Shown here: in pieces, positions 1 to 4,248 of the stretch | Layout of the letters: every line of letters begins with the position of its first letter | Position numbering within the stretch: position 1 is the stretch's first letter | From: a virus | Lineage: Duplodnaviria > Heunggongvirae > Uroviricota > Caudoviricetes | Virus record (IMG/VR): IMGVR_UViG_3300014970_000027 | Length of the DNA: 4,248 nt | Reading direction: 5' to 3' (one strand) | Program-made: the position numbers and the translations under genes | The notes under the pieces: model-generated | Database searches by the model: none | The model's input: only the letters and a program-made list of their open reading frames with translations | Told to the model about the DNA's origin: nothing

Positions 1-164
1 ACGCAAAAGTTTATGTTGAAGGCGCATGGAATCGGGTTACGAATAAAAAAGGTAATACTTCACTTTATGATCACAATAATAACACTTCAGACTACAGCAA
101 AAATGGAGCAGGTATAGAAAACTATAACTTCATCACTACTGCTGGTCTTAAGTACACATTTTAA
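1..164 (+). CDS. ompT: Outer-membrane protease OmpT (omptin), 3' end only; 5' part lies outside the window
   Basis: The + frame that begins at position 3 is open from the window edge to a TAA stop at 162..164. It translates to AKVYVEGAWNRVTNKKGNTSLYDHNNNTSDYSKNGAGIENYNFITTAGLKYTF*, which I recognise as the C-terminus of E. coli OmpT. It is convergent with appY, as I recall for the E. coli K-12 locus. Confidence 0.85.
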   Translation, partial: AKVYVEGAWNRVTNKKGNTSLYDHNNNTSDYSKNGAGIENYNFITTAGLKYTF

Positions 165-538: not shown

Positions 539-1288
539 TCAGTCAATTGTTTTGTTTATTCCATCTGTGACGCCGATTATTTTCTCAAAATAATGAGATG
601 GCGTGACACCATAATAATTTTTAAATGCACATATGAAATATGAAGTACTGTTATAGCCACATTTCTGGGCTACGACATTGATAGAATAAGAATTTGAAGT
701 TATGAGTTTTTTTGCATACCTCATCCTAGTATCTCTCAATATTTCAGTAAATGACGTTCCTTCATCCCTTAATCTTTTTTTTATTAAACTTTCACTCGTA
801 TAAATCAATTCCGCAATATCTTTTAAATGCCATTGCCGCTCAATATTAAAACTGATTATTCCAGTAATTTTACAGGTGAATGTATTTATATTTGTTAGTA
901 TAAAAGAATTTACACTTTCGCGTTTTTTGAACATGGCAAGTAAGGATATACATAGTCTTTCTTTTAACCAAAGGGAGTGTGAGTCTGCTATTTTAATCCC
1001 TTCAAACAGAGAAAAAACAAGCGATAATGGAGGTTCCTCTTCAGCAATATAGCCATTCTTATCAAGAGTAAATTTGCCAGGCAGCTCATTATTCACGTCG
1101 ATAAAAAAGGATAAACATGTTTTCTTATCTATATCAACAATTCTTAGTTTAGAGGGGCATACTGGTAACTCCCTTCTAATTTTGTCGCTTACAATAAACA
1201 ATGAATTTTTTTTGAACGAGATAACTCTCCTGTTTATAATTAAATCAAATGATTGACAGATGAAAACTACGGAGCAAACATAATCCAT
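539..1288 (-). CDS. appY: AraC-family transcriptional activator AppY (249 aa)
   Basis: Complete ORF from ATG at 1288..1286 to its stop, preceded by an AGGTGCAGG Shine-Dalgarno-like sequence. The translation begins [27 protein letters not shown], which I recognise as E. coli AppY. The C-terminal ~100 aa has the typical AraC/XylS double helix-turn-helix region (...[40 protein letters not shown]...[23 protein letters not shown]). The gene is AT-rich (about 32% GC in a hand-counted 60-nt sample at 601..660). Confidence 0.9.
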
Positions 1289-1860
1289 CCTGCACCTATC
1301 ATAAAATTAAAACAAGTTGATAGCAGTCAAATAACAACCAATTAAATACACAATCATAATCAGGATGATGTGCATTTATATTTTTATACACAAAATTATA
1401 GTTTGCAAATTTTAATAAATTTCATTTAAGATTAAATTATTATATGTATATTCTTTTTTATTCTAACGTATTTCAAAGTTACATTTTTCAACGCTTACTA
1501 TACTTTTTATTAACATAAACTCACTACAACGCACCTGAAACCTCTTGCTATATATATGTCAACCGTTTGAATTTAAAATAAAAAGAGTATCATTTTTACT
1601 TGCATTTCTTATCAAGTCACATTCAACAACAGTAAAAAAACATTATTAGAACCATTCAATTAACAAAAAACCAACATCCAGCTTGCTTAATTTTTCTTTA
1701 TTAAACGATATTGAAAATCAATTGATAAAATACATCTAAACAACCTTTTGGGGCGCAAAAGCATAACATCAAACAAACAAATAACACACCGAAAAAACTC
1801 ACAATTAATAACCTATGATATACATACTGTTTATTATGGTTGAATAAGCCACTCGATATC
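1289..1860 (-). promoter_or_regulatory. Extremely AT-rich, ORF-free upstream/leader region of appY; presumed promoter and nucleoid-protein (H-NS-type) silencing region
   Basis: The six-frame track shows no ORF of 60 aa or more on either strand. A hand-counted 60-nt sample at 1381..1440 is about 12% GC. The region sits directly 5' of the appY start on the - strand. Exact -35/-10 elements were not assigned. Confidence 0.5.
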
Positions 1861-1913
1861 TGGTGCTACGGAAGTGTCCACACGGTTTAGCAGCACCCGA
1901 TACTTTTTCCAGG

Positions 1914-1923
1914 NNNNNNNNNN
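1914..1923. other. Run of 10 ambiguous bases (N); assembly gap or masked sequence
   Basis: Literal nnnnnnnnnn in the sequence, located in the intergenic region 50 nt downstream (on the - strand) of the 97-aa gene stop. Confidence 0.99.
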
Positions 1924-1972
1924 AAGAAAAATTTAGTTTTCTTCCTCCGTTGCATATACAGCTCACCTTTTT

Positions 1973-2266
1973 TCACCCACGATTAACCAACAGCCAGACC
2001 AGCAGACACGCCACCACCGGCACAGCAAAATCCATCAGGCTTGCCACATCCCATGCACGTGTATCAAAACCGCCCCACCACGGCATATTCATTCGCTTGC
2101 CATGCCCGAACATTTCGATCCAGCGATATTCTGCCTGGGTGTGTTCACGCGCAATGAAGAACGTACAACCGGCTATCGCCCCGTAAGCCCAGTTTCCGGT
2201 AAAAAGACCAACCAGTACCTGCGCAGCCACAGCACAAAGTGCATGAAGGAAAGGTGTTATATCCAT
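1973..2266 (-). CDS. Small predicted multi-pass membrane protein (97 aa), unknown function; last gene of the tail-fibre operon
   Basis: ATG at 2266..2264 is preceded by a strong Shine-Dalgarno sequence (AAGGAGG, complement of 2271..2276) with a 4-nt spacer, 10 nt after the stop of the upstream 234-aa gene. The translation has two long hydrophobic stretches (about residues 9-38, ALCAVAAQVLVGLFTGNWAYGAIAGCTFFIA, and about 75-93, LMDFAVPVVACLLVWLLV) separated by a charged, aromatic-rich loop (REHTQAEYRWIEMFGHGKRMNMPWWGGFDTRAWD). No lipobox was found. Confidence 0.6.
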   Translation of the reverse strand: MDITPFLHALCAVAAQVLVGLFTGNWAYGAIAGCTFFIAREHTQAEYRWIEMFGHGKRMNMPWWGGFDTRAWDVASLMDFAVPVVACLLVWLLVNRG

Positions 2267-2270
2267 TACG

Positions 2271-2276
2271 CCTCCT
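2271..2276 (-). promoter_or_regulatory. Shine-Dalgarno sequence (AGGAGG) for the 97-aa membrane protein gene
   Basis: The - strand reads TAA-AGGAGG-CGTA-ATG; this is a perfect consensus ribosome-binding site at optimal spacing. Confidence 0.65.
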
Positions 2277-2981
2277 TTATCCGATATCGCTTCGGGAAGT
2301 TAATAACAACTTTAATTCTGACTCAAGTTCATCAACTCTTTCAGTCAGTTTCTGGATATGGTGAATCAGTGGAACAACCAGACGTTCGTACATTACACCT
2401 TCGGCAACAAGGCCATTGCTGGAAATAGCTTCAGGAGCATCATCTTCGTTAGCTGGTCGCCAGTGTACAAACTGAGGGGCAATTTCTCCTACTTCCTCGG
2501 CAATCAATCCGTAGAACCCCCAGTCACGCCTGTCATTTTCGCATTGCGACCTGTACCACACAGGGCGCATCCTGAAAATGACATCGGCGTGCTCTGAATC
2601 TATCGTCTCTACTGAATGTTTATAGCGAATAGACGATGTTGACCGCAGTACAGACGAAATTGCAGGGTCAGGATTAAGATAAAGGTTTGCCGCCGCTGTA
2701 GTCGTGCCCAATCCCCACAAATAAAACGCTTCACGGCCAGTCAACGGGTAAAAATCTCCACCATAACGACCGCTTTCCAGATCGTTCACTTCCAGTTTGT
2801 TTTTCAGCTTATTATCAACTTCAGTTTTTGTGTATCTGGTACTGATATCCTGCTTTGCACTGGTCATATCAGTCTGAAGCGTTGATACTTTTCCGTTAAT
2901 TGAGGAAATATCTTCCTTAGTTTTACTGACATCTCCCTTTAGCGTGGTGATATCTCCTGGAATTACTGTCGATGTAGCCAT
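2277..2981 (-). CDS. 234-aa protein: N-terminal coiled-coil region plus C-terminal intramolecular-chaperone-like domain (peptidase S74 / 'chaperone of endosialidase' type); probable short fibre or fibre-tip protein
   Basis: ATG at 2981..2979 with a GAGGGAG Shine-Dalgarno sequence immediately upstream, overlapping the stop of the 93-aa gene. Residues ~10-70 are heptad-like and rich in K/E/D/S/T (DITTLKGDVSKTKEDISSINGKVSTLQTDMTSAKQDISTRYTKTEVDNKLKNKLEVNDLES). Residues 116-234 carry the motifs I associate with the self-cleaving C-terminal chaperone domain of phage tail fibres/tailspikes: S-x-x-R-x-K (S116-S-I-R119-Y-K121, nt 2619..2636), then PVWY, GFYGLIAEEVGEIAPQFV, and YERLVVPLIHHIQKLTERVDELESELKLL. 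Confidence 0.7.
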   Translation of the reverse strand: MATSTVIPGDITTLKGDVSKTKEDISSINGKVSTLQTDMTSAKQDISTRYTKTEVDNKLKNKLEVNDLESGRYGGDFYPLTGREAFYLWGLGTTTAAANLYLNPDPAISSVLRSTSSIRYKHSVETIDSEHADVIFRMRPVWYRSQCENDRRDWGFYGLIAEEVGEIAPQFVHWRPANEDDAPEAISSNGLVAEGVMYERLVVPLIHHIQKLTERVDELESELKLLLTSRSDIG

Positions 2982-2985
2982 TTGT

Positions 2986-2992
2986 CTCCCTC
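2986..2992 (-). promoter_or_regulatory. Shine-Dalgarno sequence for the 234-aa gene, overlapping the stop codon of the 93-aa gene
   Basis: The - strand reads TGAGGGAGACAA-ATG, a 9-nt intergenic spacer. Confidence 0.55.
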
Positions 2993-3272
2993 ACATCCAG
3001 CCACGAAGTTGATGCTCAACAACAACCGCGTATTTATCGAATATTGACGATTTTTTTGCATCATTAATGATGCGCACGTTTACAAAATATCCGTCTTCCT
3101 TAACACATACCGGTTCGCCATCTTCAGTCAGTTCTCCGGTTTCTTTGTACACGTTACCTATCACGTCAATAAGAATATCATCCTGCATCGACTCGTCATC
3201 ATAATAGCCAATACTCTCCATAAAGGCCGAAAAGTCGGCCCTGTCTGCAAATTTGAGTGTTAAATCTTTCAT
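2991..3272 (-). CDS. Small acidic hypothetical protein (93 aa), translationally coupled between the tail-fibre gene and the 234-aa gene
   Basis: Its ATG (3272..3270) overlaps the TGA stop of the tail-fibre gene (3271..3269) in an ATGA arrangement. A GGGGGAG Shine-Dalgarno sequence lies 8 nt upstream (complement of 3281..3287). The translation MKDLTLKFADRADFSAFMESIGYYDDESMQDDILIDVIGNVYKETGELTEDGEPVCVKEDGYFVNVRIINDAKKSSIFDKYAVVVEHQLRGWM is strongly acidic and has no hydrophobic segment. I recognise no family. Confidence 0.6.
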   Translation of the reverse strand: MKDLTLKFADRADFSAFMESIGYYDDESMQDDILIDVIGNVYKETGELTEDGEPVCVKEDGYFVNVRIINDAKKSSIFDKYAVVVEHQLRGWM

Positions 3273-4248
3273 TTAATACTCTCCCCCATTTGCGCATCAG
3301 TTAATTCTTTATGCCAGATACGCAGATTACGGATATGACCAAAAAGATGATACTCCCCATTAGTGCCCTGCCCTCCAATTCGCAATACTGCCCGTGGAAC
3401 AATTGAAGTCCATGTTGTTTTTGCCGCAACAGATAATTCACCATTACATACGGCCTGAACATCTCCATCAGCGCCACAACGGAAGCCTGAAATGATTTTC
3501 CTCTGGGTTGTTGCCACATATTTATTACACCCTCCCATAGAAATAAAAGGAGAACCGGCATCAGAGAAATTATTACCACGGAATCCATGCGTGAACAGAC
3601 CATTTTCCTGATAATCTTTAACATTAAAGATTAATGGTGATTTGCTGGGAGGGATATCCCAGTTTTTATTAACTTCAACAAGAGCACTGAATGGTAATCG
3701 GTGAATATTGTTTCTTACAGGTATTGTCACCATGTCGCTGGAGCGAGTGCCAGGAGCCCCTTCAGTAATGATAAATGACGTCCTGTACGACCCAATCTCC
3801 GCCTGAGGCATCGCAATATCTAACGTAGAGCCATTGGGGATAATACTGATTCCAGGCATCGCCAGGATTTCAAATCTTGAGCTGATTATCATTTCCGCAT
3901 CTGCAAAAAGAGTGGCGGTAAACAACCACCATTCACCGACTCTTTCTGCCGTCACCGTCACATTATTTCCATGAACAACATTTCCCGTAACAGGATCCAG
4001 AGCTGCATCTGAATGAAAAACAAACGCACCATTATCAGACATTTTTCCGAACCTTGCACGACACCGGGAATTATCACTTTTCGTCAGACACGATATCGTC
4101 GTATAAGAACCTGCCGGGCAGGTGTAAGCATCATTCGTGTTTACAGCAATTGCCTGATATCCTTGTGCTGTCGGATTTTCATTAATAACAGTTATCCTTC
4201 CATAGTTAAACCCCTTATCACTGTCGAACGACTCAACAGACACACTAA
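3269..4248 (-). CDS. Phage tail-fibre / host-specificity protein, C-terminal region with lectin-like (LamG/concanavalin-A-like) distal domain; 5' end probably outside the window
   Basis: The reading frame is open to the window edge; the first in-window candidate start is a GTG at 4243..4241, so the gene is probably longer. Stop is TGA at 3271..3269. The C-terminal sequence ...RIGGQGTNGEYHLFGHIRNLRIWHKELTDAQM resembles the terminal signature of LamG_3-type jelly-roll domains (F-x-G-x-I-D-E-V-R-I-Y-N-R-A-L-S-x-x-E-I). The translation is rich in G/S/T/N and beta-strand-like. About 52% GC in a hand-counted sample at 2401..2460 of the same module. Confidence 0.7.
   Translation of the reverse strand, partial: SVSVESFDSDKGFNYGRITVINENPTAQGYQAIAVNTNDAYTCPAGSYTTISCLTKSDNSRCRARFGKMSDNGAFVFHSDAALDPVTGNVVHGNNVTVTAERVGEWWLFTATLFADAEMIISSRFEILAMPGISIIPNGSTLDIAMPQAEIGSYRTSFIITEGAPGTRSSDMVTIPVRNNIHRLPFSALVEVNKNWDIPPSKSPLIFNVKDYQENGLFTHGFRGNNFSDAGSPFISMGGCNKYVATTQRKIISGFRCGADGDVQAVCNGELSVAAKTTWTSIVPRAVLRIGGQGTNGEYHLFGHIRNLRIWHKELTDAQMGESIK

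What the first reader, a model, noticed from the sequence alone, without database searches (positions are those of the whole stretch)
1973..2266. Small membrane protein at the very end of the tail-fibre module: candidate superinfection-exclusion or lysogenic-conversion gene
The position immediately downstream of host-recognition genes is where several phages place receptor-masking or exclusion factors (T5 llp next to its receptor-binding protein gene; cor in phi80/HK022/N15 after tail genes; lom in lambda). This 97-aa product has two hydrophobic helices flanking a Trp/Arg-rich loop (MFGHGKRMNMPWWGGFDTRAWD). It has a consensus AGGAGG ribosome-binding site, the strongest in the window, consistent with expression. 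A small inner-membrane protein here could block DNA entry or modify the receptor targeted by the adjacent fibre.
Basis: inference. Interest (0 to 1): 0.5.

Follow-up and report, generated by a model that had tools for sequence, protein, structure and literature searches.

The report
Small membrane protein beside tail fibres
This is a real, strongly conserved 97-residue membrane-protein gene that many kinds of phage keep directly behind their host-recognition genes; its bacterial relatives sit inside capsule-export gene clusters, so it probably acts on the cell's surface sugars, but nobody has tested what it does.

Summary
The ORF is real: minus strand, 1973-2266, 97 aa, AGGAGG 4 nt before the ATG, last gene of a tail-fibre operon in a DLP12-type prophage remnant beside appY/ompT. 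It is under purifying selection (pN/pS 0.13) and occurs in 1900 of 5426 complete E. coli genomes, always annotated 'hypothetical protein'. It belongs to an uncharacterised family: phrog_1443, with no Pfam, NCBIfam, PADLOC or PDB match and no informative fold match. The family has 439 clusters at 50% identity, all about 90-140 aa, with an invariant core H8...R40-E41-x-x-Q-A-E-x-R...R58...W72...D79...P83. In siphoviruses, myoviruses, podoviruses and a jumbo phage it lies directly downstream of tail-fibre or tailspike genes, often overlapping them. Most of these are polysaccharide depolymerases. Cellular homologues in Sphingomonadales and Hyphomicrobiales lie inside Kdo-type capsule loci (Poly_export, KpsC/S, KdsA, KpsU, KpsF). 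The best reading is a late-expressed inner-membrane effector acting on lipid-linked surface-polysaccharide assembly or export, which alters the receptor glycan. This rests on association only (confidence about 0.4). A link to receptor glycans is plausible. Prophage expression and a block on DNA entry have no support.

The parts
1973..2266 (-). 97-aa small membrane protein gene (phrog_1443 family). Three predicted helices: 4-23, 26-53, 74-96. Conserved core H8, R40-E41, Q44-A45-E46, R48, R58, W72, D79, P83.
2271..2276 (-). Shine-Dalgarno AGGAGG, 4 nt before the ATG and abutting the TAA stop of the upstream gene. The layout suggests translational coupling and leaves no room for a promoter in the spacer.
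2277..2981 (-). 234-aa free-standing 'tail fiber domain' protein. It has an N-terminal coiled coil and a Peptidase_S74 intramolecular-chaperone domain (residues 116-172). It equals the last ~240 residues of 1385-aa fibres (phrog_3299). It is the immediate upstream partner here and is absent at this spot in phage 21.
2991..3272 (-). 93-aa acidic protein of unknown function (phrog_1361). Its start overlaps the stf stop. It accompanies the 97-aa gene in lambdoid phages (phage 21, PhiR41_1).
3269..4243 (-). C-terminal part of the side tail fibre (cut by the window end). It carries a GTA head-spike-fibre domain and a weak ConA-like lectin match, and hits phrog_1419 'tail protein'.
1863..1972 (-). 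Downstream flank: about 70 nt after the stop are conserved with phage 21, followed by a tail-fibre-assembly pseudogene remnant (RefSeq annotation). It contains the masked N-run 1914-1923. No terminator-like site was found.

Best explanation
The gene encodes a small (three-helix) inner-membrane protein. It is made together with the phage's receptor-binding proteins, from the late operon. It acts at the inner membrane on the assembly or export of lipid-linked surface polysaccharide (capsule, O-antigen, EPS or a Kdo-linked glycolipid). It may bind the lipid-linked intermediate, or a conserved component of the export machinery. The likely binding site is the conserved polar cluster at one membrane face (H8, R40, E41, Q44, E46, R48, R58, W72, D79). 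The expected result is a change or shut-down of the glycan that the neighbouring tailspike or fibre recognises. That would give receptor-level exclusion of related phages and less loss of progeny on cell debris. Shown: the gene is real and under selection; it is membrane-embedded by prediction; it is linked to receptor-binding genes in many phage types; cellular homologues lie in capsule loci. Inferred: the target pathway, the direction of the effect (inhibition or modification) and the benefit to the phage.
For: (1) Position. The gene lies directly behind receptor-binding genes in a lambdoid siphovirus (phage 21: stf, 92 aa, 97 aa). The same holds in a P2-like myovirus (phiHAP-1: fibre, Tfa, ORF19 with a 4-nt overlap, then the sheath gene) and a P22-like podovirus (JEP4: tailspike, then the gene with a 4-nt overlap, then int). 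It also holds in a Comamonas prophage (gpJ, 72 aa, gene) and a jumbo Aeromonas phage (between a 1125-aa protein and a tail fibre). (2) In 160 diverse IMG/VR loci, 146 have a same-strand upstream ORF. Of these, 53 overlap the gene and 56 end 0-30 nt before it. The 131 that end within 120 nt collapse to 61 clusters at 50% identity. The PHROGs these clusters match most often are all tail-spike, fibre or tail families. By Pfam, 24 of 61 carry a pectate-lyase-like domain, 8 Peptidase_S74, 8 End_N_terminal, 7 Beta_helix and 2 P22 Head_binding. These are glycan-binding or glycan-degrading tailspike types. (3) Cellular homologues with the full motif sit in Kdo-type capsule loci. Aurantiacibacter: Poly_export, then the gene 17 nt later, next to PhyH, KdsA, KpsF, KpsU, Capsule_synth and glycosyltransferases. 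Novosphingobium pentaromativorans and a soil contig show similar loci. Aureimonas: Poly_export, OMP, gene, KdsA, KpsU, KpsF on one strand. Devosia: Poly_export, gene, Capsule_synth, KpsF. In all, 19 of 80 genome loci have such genes within 5 kb, in two separate branches of the family tree. (4) The hosts are all Pseudomonadota or Desulfobacterota, apart from one Dehalococcoidia MAG. They include Sphingomonadales, which to my knowledge lack LPS. (5) The strictly conserved polar/aromatic core fits a conserved ligand or partner better than a phage-specific target. (6) Precedent: small stand-alone phage proteins that alter O-antigen in both lytic and temperate phages (Gnarl1-3) and the small polymerase inhibitor Iap (PMC12373910).
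Against: There is no phenotype, interaction or expression data for any family member. The capsule linkage is recurrent but not universal: 3 of 6 distinct, well-annotated sphingomonad contexts. The others are PPIase/DsbA-like/SMC and Gcw_chp/GST neighbourhoods. The 80 genome loci are phylogenetically non-independent and were selected by similarity to one seed. Some upstream partners are not glycan enzymes, for example gpJ-type central fibres. E. coli B, C and K-12-like hosts that carry the gene lack O-antigen or group 2 capsule (my knowledge), so the target there would have to be something else, such as core LPS, ECA or colanic acid. Late expression alone cannot remove glycan already on the surface. 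Topology is unresolved. K+R counts put 5.3 positive charges in the 40-73 loop, against 0.08 in the helix 1-2 turn and 0.65 in the C-tail. Yet alphaproteobacterial members have strongly basic C-tails, and the GenBank TMHMM note says N-in/C-in with 2 TMDs. No glycan-modifying partner genes (Gtr, acyltransferase) lie downstream.
Confidence: 0.4

Rival explanations
1. Envelope or membrane housekeeping factor unrelated to phage receptors. A small membrane protein with a general role (lipid or ion homeostasis, envelope stress) that phages carry as a moron. It lands at fibre-gene boundaries only because these are recombination hot spots.
Against: The placement is precise: 109 of 160 loci have the gene overlapping or within 30 nt of a same-strand upstream ORF. 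It also sits inside structural modules, not only at operon ends (phiHAP-1, ACP1, Aeromonas 4_4512). The capsule-locus linkage recurs in two orders with rearranged gene order.
Confidence: 0.2
2. Superinfection exclusion by blocking DNA entry at the inner membrane, like T4 Imm, P22 SieA or HK97 gp15.
For: It is a small inner-membrane protein encoded by many temperate phages. It sits in slots where exclusion genes are known (the P2 Z/fun slot; the region downstream of the tailspike in P22-like phages). It is widespread in E. coli prophages: 1900 of 5426 genomes, up to 7 copies.
Against: It has no homology to any annotated exclusion family. The core is near-invariant across hosts from E. coli to Comamonas, Halomonas and Sphingomonadales, and across sipho-, myo- and podoviruses whose DNA-delivery machines differ. 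Clearly cellular, vertically inherited homologues exist in capsule loci with no phage genes nearby. No promoter-like site was found for prophage expression.
Confidence: 0.12
3. Helper for maturation or assembly of the receptor-binding protein, or a minor virion or ejection component, co-translated with it.
For: There are start/stop overlaps with the upstream fibre or tailspike gene in many phages, and the gene is present in a jumbo phage that is probably virulent. In lambdoid phages it travels with a second small conserved protein, phrog_1361.
Against: It is a three-helix hydrophobic protein with almost no soluble part. It accompanies structurally unrelated receptor-binding proteins: beta-helix depolymerases, S74 fibres, gpJ and lectin-like Stf. 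Cellular homologues sit in loci without any phage gene. It matches no Tfa/Caudo_TAP family. Intact alleles (38 of 38 unique) include copies in defective prophages like this one that can no longer build tails.
Confidence: 0.1
4. Lysis-related membrane protein (holin, antiholin or accessory) placed after the tail-fibre gene, as the T7 holin is.
For: In 28 or so of the 160 metagenomic loci the next ORFs are small hydrophobic proteins of unknown function: 55 aa (phrog_8494) and about 160 aa (phrog_1544). The T7 holin gene 17.5 follows tail-fibre gene 17 (my knowledge).
Against: Phage 21 and the P22-like phages are expected to have complete lysis cassettes elsewhere, as lambdoid phages do (my knowledge; not checked in these records). 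The prophage behind this window has its lysis genes more than 7 kb away. No endolysin or annotated lysis PHROG lies downstream. There is no charged C-terminal tail (3 residues after the last helix). The strict polar motif and cellular homologues in capsule loci are unlike holins.
Confidence: 0.06

Closest known systems
Gnarl1-3 (small phage accessory proteins that alter O-antigen; Nat Commun 2025, PMC12373910)
   Same: They are 40-90 aa stand-alone phage proteins without enzyme-like size, found in both lytic and temperate phages. They are proposed to exclude kin phages or stop progeny sticking to debris.
   Different: There is no sequence relationship: the family motif is absent from that paper's supplements, and the source phages are not among my hits. 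Gnarl3 binds the soluble enzyme GalU, whereas this protein is an integral membrane protein. Gnarl2 is Mu gene Mup07 near the start of that record, an early-region gene to my knowledge; none of the three is described as lying next to receptor-binding genes. The effect of the present family on glycans is untested.
Iap of Pseudomonas phage D3, and the alpha-polymerase inhibitor of Salmonella phage epsilon15
   Same: They are small hydrophobic phage proteins that act at the inner membrane on O-antigen polymerisation. In epsilon15 the gene lies just downstream of the tailspike gene (my knowledge; Iap is cited).
   Different: They are much shorter (31 and about 66 aa, from memory) and have a narrow host range. 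They work with a phage-encoded replacement polymerase. There is no homology and no cellular homologues in capsule loci.
T5 Llp and phi80/N15 Cor
   Same: They are accessory genes placed beside the receptor-binding genes. They protect the infected cell or lysogen and the progeny at the receptor level.
   Different: Llp and Cor are outer-membrane lipoproteins specific for one protein receptor (FhuA). The present protein has no lipobox: C11 is preceded by Leu and is not conserved. It is an inner-membrane helix bundle and is conserved across hosts with unrelated receptors.
GtrABC / Oac seroconversion cassettes of P22-like and Shigella phages
   Same: They occupy the same slot, between the tailspike gene and int/attP, in P22-like genomes (slot from my knowledge). 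They act on lipid-linked glycan at the inner membrane.
   Different: They are enzymes or flippases with Pfam families (GtrA, GT2, Acyl_transf_3), none of which matches here. They have their own promoters and are prophage-expressed. No such partner genes lie next to this family.
ExoX / Psi of rhizobia (small membrane inhibitors of exopolysaccharide synthesis)
   Same: They are cellular inner-membrane proteins of about 10 kDa, encoded in polysaccharide loci, that modulate EPS production post-translationally (my knowledge).
   Different: No homology was detected in the Pfam scans. The role of the cellular homologues of the present family in capsule loci is unknown.
P2 Z/fun, HK97 gp15, T4 Imm, P22 SieA
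   Same: They are phage accessory genes for exclusion. Z/fun sits in the same slot as phiHAP-1 ORF19, between the tail-fibre assembly gene and the sheath gene (slot from my knowledge).
   Different: They are unrelated in sequence and are narrow families. They act on DNA entry or abortive mechanisms, not on glycans.

Membership tests
phrog_1443 (uncharacterised phage protein family) | Full-length match to the family profile | tested here: met
   E 1.7e-58, residues 1-96 on profile positions 1-96 of 97. A second PHROG (phrog_34165) covers the C-terminal half.
phrog_1443 family as delimited here | Size of about 90-140 aa, three hydrophobic helices, and the motif H...G-R-E-x-x-Q-A-E-Y-R...R-x-N-M-P-W-W-G-G-F-D...W...D...P | tested here: met
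   H8, R40, E41, W72 and P83 are invariant. Q44, A45, E46, R48, R58 and D79 are at least 90% conserved in 63 diverse members. AlphaFold2 predicts three helices.
Receptor-blocking lipoproteins (T5 Llp, phi80 Cor) | Signal peptide with lipobox Cys; outer-membrane lipoprotein | tested here: not met
   There is no basic n-region. The only N-terminal Cys (C11) follows Leu and is Ile in most members. The protein is predicted to be an all-helical membrane bundle.
Receptor-blocking lipoproteins (T5 Llp, phi80 Cor) | Specific binding to the receptor used by the phage's own receptor-binding protein | not testable with these tools
   This needs binding or adsorption assays.
Holins | Gene adjacent to endolysin or spanin genes | tested here: not met
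   Endolysin or spanin genes are not adjacent in phage 21, JEP4, phiHAP-1 or the RefSeq prophage. No lysis PHROG or Pfam family appears among the downstream neighbours.
Holins | Charged, hydrophilic C-terminal tail after the last TMD; lethal hole formation | tested here: inconclusive
   The tail is only N-R-G here, which argues against a holin. Lethality was not testable.
Seroconversion enzymes (GtrA/GtrB/Gtr-type, Oac acyltransferase-3) | Match to PF04138, GT2 or PF01757 | tested here: not met
   No Pfam hit better than E 0.058 for the window protein, and none of these families for 10 other members.
Tail fibre assembly chaperones (Tfa / Caudo_TAP) | Soluble protein with a Tfa domain | tested here: not met
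   No Pfam, NCBIfam or PHROG Tfa match. The protein is hydrophobic throughout.
Known anti-phage defence proteins (PADLOC) | Match to any PADLOC model | tested here: not met
   0 families at E up to 1.
Small phage modulators of surface-glycan synthesis (Iap, Gnarl, ExoX-like; a functional class, not a homology family) | Expression changes O-antigen, capsule or EPS without a phage-encoded enzyme | not testable with these tools
   There is association evidence only: glycan-specific receptor-binding proteins upstream and cellular homologues in Kdo-capsule loci.
Lysogenic-conversion morons | Own promoter and terminator; expression from the repressed prophage | tested here: inconclusive
   There is a 10-nt spacer to the upstream gene, no sigma-70-like site on the minus strand and no terminator-like site in 1300-3400. 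The scan is crude and no RNA data were found.

The most novel reading that the evidence does not exclude
The family is a previously unrecognised small inner-membrane component or regulator of lipid-linked (Kdo-type, ABC-transporter-dependent or related) surface-polysaccharide export in Gram-negative bacteria. Phages of every tail type have captured it and welded it to their receptor-binding genes. They would use it as a general-purpose switch that shuts off or alters the very glycan their tailspike recognises. This would be a widespread, enzyme-free route to receptor-level exclusion and protection of progeny.
Probability: 0.25. Interest if true: 0.75.

Novelty: new variant of a known kind. Interest (0 to 1): 0.55.

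Why it matters
About a third of complete E. coli genomes carry this gene, often in several copies, and every record calls it hypothetical. It is one of the few small phage accessory proteins with all of the following: a strictly conserved motif, a fixed genomic partner (the receptor-binding gene) across phage morphotypes, and clearly cellular homologues in capsule loci. If it does control surface-glycan display, it would explain part of prophage-mediated resistance to phages that target capsule or O-antigen. That is relevant to phage therapy and to host-range prediction. It would also add an unknown player to group-2-like capsule biogenesis, and it would be a handy genomic marker for finding receptor-binding genes in metagenomic phages. 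The hypothesis can be tested directly with one plasmid and standard LPS/capsule gels plus adsorption assays.

Tried and rejected
Homology routes all failed to name a function:
- Pfam gave only a sub-threshold PhoR N-terminal hit, E 0.058, and nothing for 10 other members.
- NCBIfam gave nothing, and PADLOC gave nothing.
- A PDB sequence profile gave only a chance hit, E 1.7.
- Foldseek against BFVD gave nothing at E <= 0.001.
- The AFDB50 library was unavailable.

Other leads that went nowhere:
- A UniRef label 'DUF2809' on one member was not reproduced by hmmscan.
- No domain fusions exist among the best 150 of 439 clusters.
- Kapi1 hyp24, lying between tailspike and integrase and tested for O-antigen conversion, turned out not to be this family: it is 34 aa on the opposite strand. 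That negative experiment therefore does not apply here.
- Gnarl proteins are not homologues.
- The phage 21 genome paper says nothing about gp24.
- The first genome-contig scan with the broad alignment failed for lack of a conserved 7-10-column stretch.
- The first viral scan returned only near-identical E. coli prophage copies, so I re-ran it with divergent seeds.
- The holin idea was considered because some metagenomic loci have small hydrophobic ORFs downstream. PHROGs gives these no lysis annotation.
- Topology could not be settled from charge counts.

Full report
**Where the window comes from.**
The window matches E. coli chromosomes at 99.6% identity over its full length. RefSeq annotation of one such genome gives the following order:
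- the 3' end of ompT;
- appY;
- a tail-fibre-assembly pseudogene remnant;
- a 97-aa hypothetical protein;
- a 234-aa 'tail fiber domain-containing protein';
- a 93-aa hypothetical protein;
- a truncated side tail fibre fused to a truncated portal gene;
- then head-tail joining protein, terminase, nohD, lysis genes and quuD.

This is the distal end of a DLP12-type defective lambdoid prophage. All the phage genes listed lie on the window's minus strand.

- The ORF lies at 1973-2266 on the minus strand. It has an ATG start and encodes 97 aa, including the quoted loop.
- AGGAGG lies at 2271-2276, 4 nt before the ATG. It directly abuts the TAA stop of the 234-aa gene.
- Hydropathy shows a long hydrophobic stretch (residues 4-39), a polar Trp/Arg-rich stretch (40-73) and a second hydrophobic stretch (74-94).
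- AlphaFold2, run with a 27-sequence alignment, gives mean pLDDT 92 and three helices: 4-23, 26-53 and 74-96. The first stretch is therefore probably a helical hairpin, not one helix. The phage 21 GenBank record notes 2 TMDs, N-in/C-in, from TMHMM.
- No sigma-70-like site on the gene's strand and no terminator-like site were found in 1300-3400.

**It is a real gene and very common.**
- Among 82 full-length copies in fetched loci there are 38 unique alleles, all intact, with pN/pS 0.13. The 93-aa gene gives 0.31 and the 234-aa gene 0.16.
- The gene is present in 1900 of 5426 complete E. coli genomes, with a median of 2 copies and a maximum of 7. It is always annotated 'hypothetical protein'.

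**What family it belongs to.**
- It matches phrog_1443 (unknown function) full length at E 1.7e-58.
- It matches nothing meaningful in Pfam, NCBIfam, PADLOC or PDB sequences.
- Fold searches return only generic helical matches.
- A word-indexed search found 469 relatives.
- An exhaustive profile search found 439 clusters at 50% identity with E <= 0.001. All listed members are stand-alone proteins of about 60-140 aa, with no fusions.
- In 63 diverse members, H8, R40, E41, W72 and P83 are invariant. Q44, A45, E46, R48, R58 and D79 are at least 90% conserved.
- On a helix, R40/E41/Q44/A45/R48 fall on one face. In a three-helix antiparallel bundle, H8 and D79 would lie at the same depth on the same side (my inference; no coordinates were available).
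- Such a strict polar core across very distant hosts points to a conserved ligand or partner.

**Genomic partner in phages.**
Named phages of different types show the same arrangement:
- Phage 21 (siphovirus): side tail fibre, 92 aa, then the gene, followed by sitABCD cargo on the other strand.
- PhiR41_1: Stf, Stf, 92 aa, gene.
- phiHAP-1 (P2-like myovirus): fibre, hypothetical, tail-fibre assembly protein, ORF19 with a 4-nt overlap, then the sheath gene. To my knowledge this is the slot that Z/fun occupies in P2.
- JEP4 (P22-like podovirus): tailspike, then the gene with a 4-nt overlap, then integrase. To my knowledge gtrABC or oac sit in this slot in relatives.
- A Comamonas prophage: a 2520-aa gpJ, 72 aa, then the gene.
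- Aeromonas phage 4_4512: inside the structural module, after a 698-aa protein.
- The 236-kb Aeromonas jumbo phage ACP1: between a 1125-aa protein and a tail fibre.

All of these copies are intact family members. The virulent-looking phage HC6 keeps only a degenerate, unannotated remnant behind a fibre whose C-terminus looks like an S74-type chaperone domain by eye.

**A wider sample.**
I fetched 160 divergent loci from IMG/VR with two different seeds and called ORFs naively.
- 146 of 160 loci have a same-strand upstream ORF. Of these, 53 overlap the gene and 56 end 0-30 nt before it. In 76 loci the gap is <= 30 nt and the upstream ORF is >= 340 aa.
- The 131 upstream ORFs that end within 120 nt collapse to 61 clusters at 50% identity.
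- The PHROGs matched by most of these clusters are all tail-spike, tail-fibre or tail-protein families: 23, 21, 21, 21, 19, 18... of 61.
- By Pfam, 24 carry a pectate-lyase-like domain, 8 Peptidase_S74, 8 the endosialidase N-terminal extension, 7 Beta_helix and 2 the P22 head-binding domain. These counts overlap and are lower bounds.
- Downstream neighbours are heterogeneous, with no lysis, Gtr or acyltransferase genes.

**Cellular homologues: the most informative result.**
A scan of one genome per species returned 168 relatives. The best 80 to the chosen seed are mostly Sphingomonadales. Hyphomicrobiales, Comamonas, Aeromonas, Halomonas, Trichlorobacter and Desulfovibrio also appear. Contexts with precomputed or fresh Pfam annotation:
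- Aurantiacibacter flavus: the gene follows a Poly_export/SLBB (OPX) gene by 17 nt. The surrounding cluster has glycosyltransferases, UDP-GlcNAc 2-epimerase, UDP-sugar dehydrogenase, PhyH, KdsA, KpsF, KpsU and Capsule_synth (KpsC/S).
- Novosphingobium pentaromativorans and a soil contig: the gene lies next to PhyH, Asp_Arg_Hydrox, KdsA, KpsF, KpsU and Capsule_synth.
- Croceibacterium and Erythrobacter sp. WG: the gene overlaps the end of a Capsule_synth gene.
- Aureimonas (another order): Poly_export, OMP beta-barrel, the gene, KdsA, KpsU and KpsF all on one strand.
- Devosia: the gene lies between Poly_export and Capsule_synth.

By blastp, 19 of the 80 loci have such genes within 5 kb. In a neighbour-joining tree the sphingomonad copies form one clade, with 64 of 68 leaves genome-derived. 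The Aureimonas and Devosia copies fall next to viral-contig copies. The capsule linkage therefore appears in two separate branches.

The linkage is not universal. Other sphingomonad contexts are PPIase / DsbA-like / SMC and Gcw_chp / GST.

**Interpretation.**
Two independent associations point the same way. In phages the gene is tied to receptor-binding proteins, most of which bind or degrade surface polysaccharide. In bacteria it is tied to loci that make and export a Kdo-type capsule. The simplest explanation is that the protein acts at the inner membrane on lipid-linked surface-glycan assembly or export. The phage copy, made with the late tail genes, would then change or stop display of the receptor glycan.

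Small stand-alone phage proteins with this effect are now known, in both lytic and temperate phages. They are Gnarl1-3 and Iap (PMC12373910). They have been proposed to exclude kin phages or to prevent progeny sticking to debris. They are not homologues of this family.

I put this reading at about 0.4, because no member has been tested and the link is guilt by association. The rivals are a general envelope factor (0.2), a block on DNA entry (0.12), a helper for receptor-binding proteins or a virion component (0.1), and a lysis-related role (0.06).

- The description is correct apart from the helix count.
- The idea that the gene is an exclusion or conversion factor tied to the adjacent fibre is partly supported in its 'modify the receptor' form.
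- The Llp/Cor analogy fails on the defining features: there is no lipobox, and the protein sits in the inner membrane.
- Nothing supports expression from the repressed prophage.
- The family is not restricted to temperate phages.

**Caveats.**
- ORF calling in fetched loci was naive (longest ORFs, greedy selection) and is noisy in high-GC genomes.
- The locus sets are the best 80 matches to particular seeds and are not independent samples.
- Family counts from alignment-wide scans overlap.
- The promoter scan is a crude consensus match.
- Membrane topology is unresolved.

Noticed in passing
window 1-164 (+) and 539-1288 (-): The window starts with the 3' end of ompT and contains appY (249 aa, AraC family). 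The AT-rich stretch 165-1900 is the junction between the chromosome and the DLP12-type prophage remnant.
   Followed up: partly
window 1914-1923: A run of 10 N. Aligned genomes and phage 21 read CTTCCAGCAACG-like sequence here. The bases just after the N-run (AAGAAAAATTTA) also differ from those references. The run lies in a tail-fibre-assembly pseudogene remnant.
   Followed up: partly
window 2277-2981 (-): The 234-aa ORF is a free-standing copy of the last ~240 residues of 1385-aa fibres (phrog_3299). It consists of a coiled coil plus an S74 intramolecular-chaperone domain. It is inserted between the 93-aa and 97-aa genes relative to phage 21. Three of 22 unique alleles in fetched loci are disrupted. 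Whether it is functional or a recombination relic is open.
   Followed up: partly
window 2991-3272 (-): A 93-aa acidic protein of unknown function (phrog_1361) whose start overlaps the stf stop. It precedes the 97-aa gene in phage 21 and PhiR41_1 but is absent in P22-like carriers. Its pN/pS is 0.31.
   Followed up: partly
L002 15260-17136 (RefSeq NZ_AP025220.2): In this prophage a truncated portal gene abuts a truncated side-tail-fibre gene. One deletion therefore removed the whole head-tail module but spared the three small genes at the fibre end.
   Followed up: no
L007 4965-5120 (Escherichia phage HC6; same in ST1UNAM, PBM-2, PBM-3): An unannotated, degenerate 51-codon remnant of the family (RRRANIPWWGGFDWRAWDLPSLLD) lies right after an 859-aa fibre whose C-terminus looks like an S74-type chaperone domain by eye. 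These phages look virulent.
   Followed up: partly
L172 6087-6254, L184 6057-6557 and similar IMG/VR loci: Recurrent downstream ORFs that look hydrophobic by eye: 55 aa (17 loci, weak phrog_8494 hit, usually overlapping the family gene by 4 nt) and about 160 aa (12 loci, phrog_1544). Both are of unknown function and could be a membrane-protein cluster or lysis genes.
   Followed up: partly
L330 10300-16495, L331 12894-20213, L338 8339-15668: Sphingomonad loci combine Kdo synthesis genes (KdsA, KpsF, KpsU), KpsC/S-like Capsule_synth, a His_Phos_1 phosphatase, and PhyH and Asp_Arg_Hydrox dioxygenases. The latter is the Pfam family that, to my knowledge, includes LpxO. This is an unusual Kdo-glycolipid or capsule cluster in bacteria that, to my knowledge, lack LPS.
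   Followed up: no
L001 9386-12835 (phage 21): Phage 21 carries a complete sitABCD iron/manganese transporter cargo immediately after the 97-aa gene, on the opposite strand.
   Followed up: no
P0148 and P0203 (family members, 140-142 aa): Two clusters carry a ~45-residue insertion in the conserved loop (…KPFQTPADYAEWHYK…). The insertion duplicates the QAEY-like motif. They are the only size variants seen.
   Followed up: no
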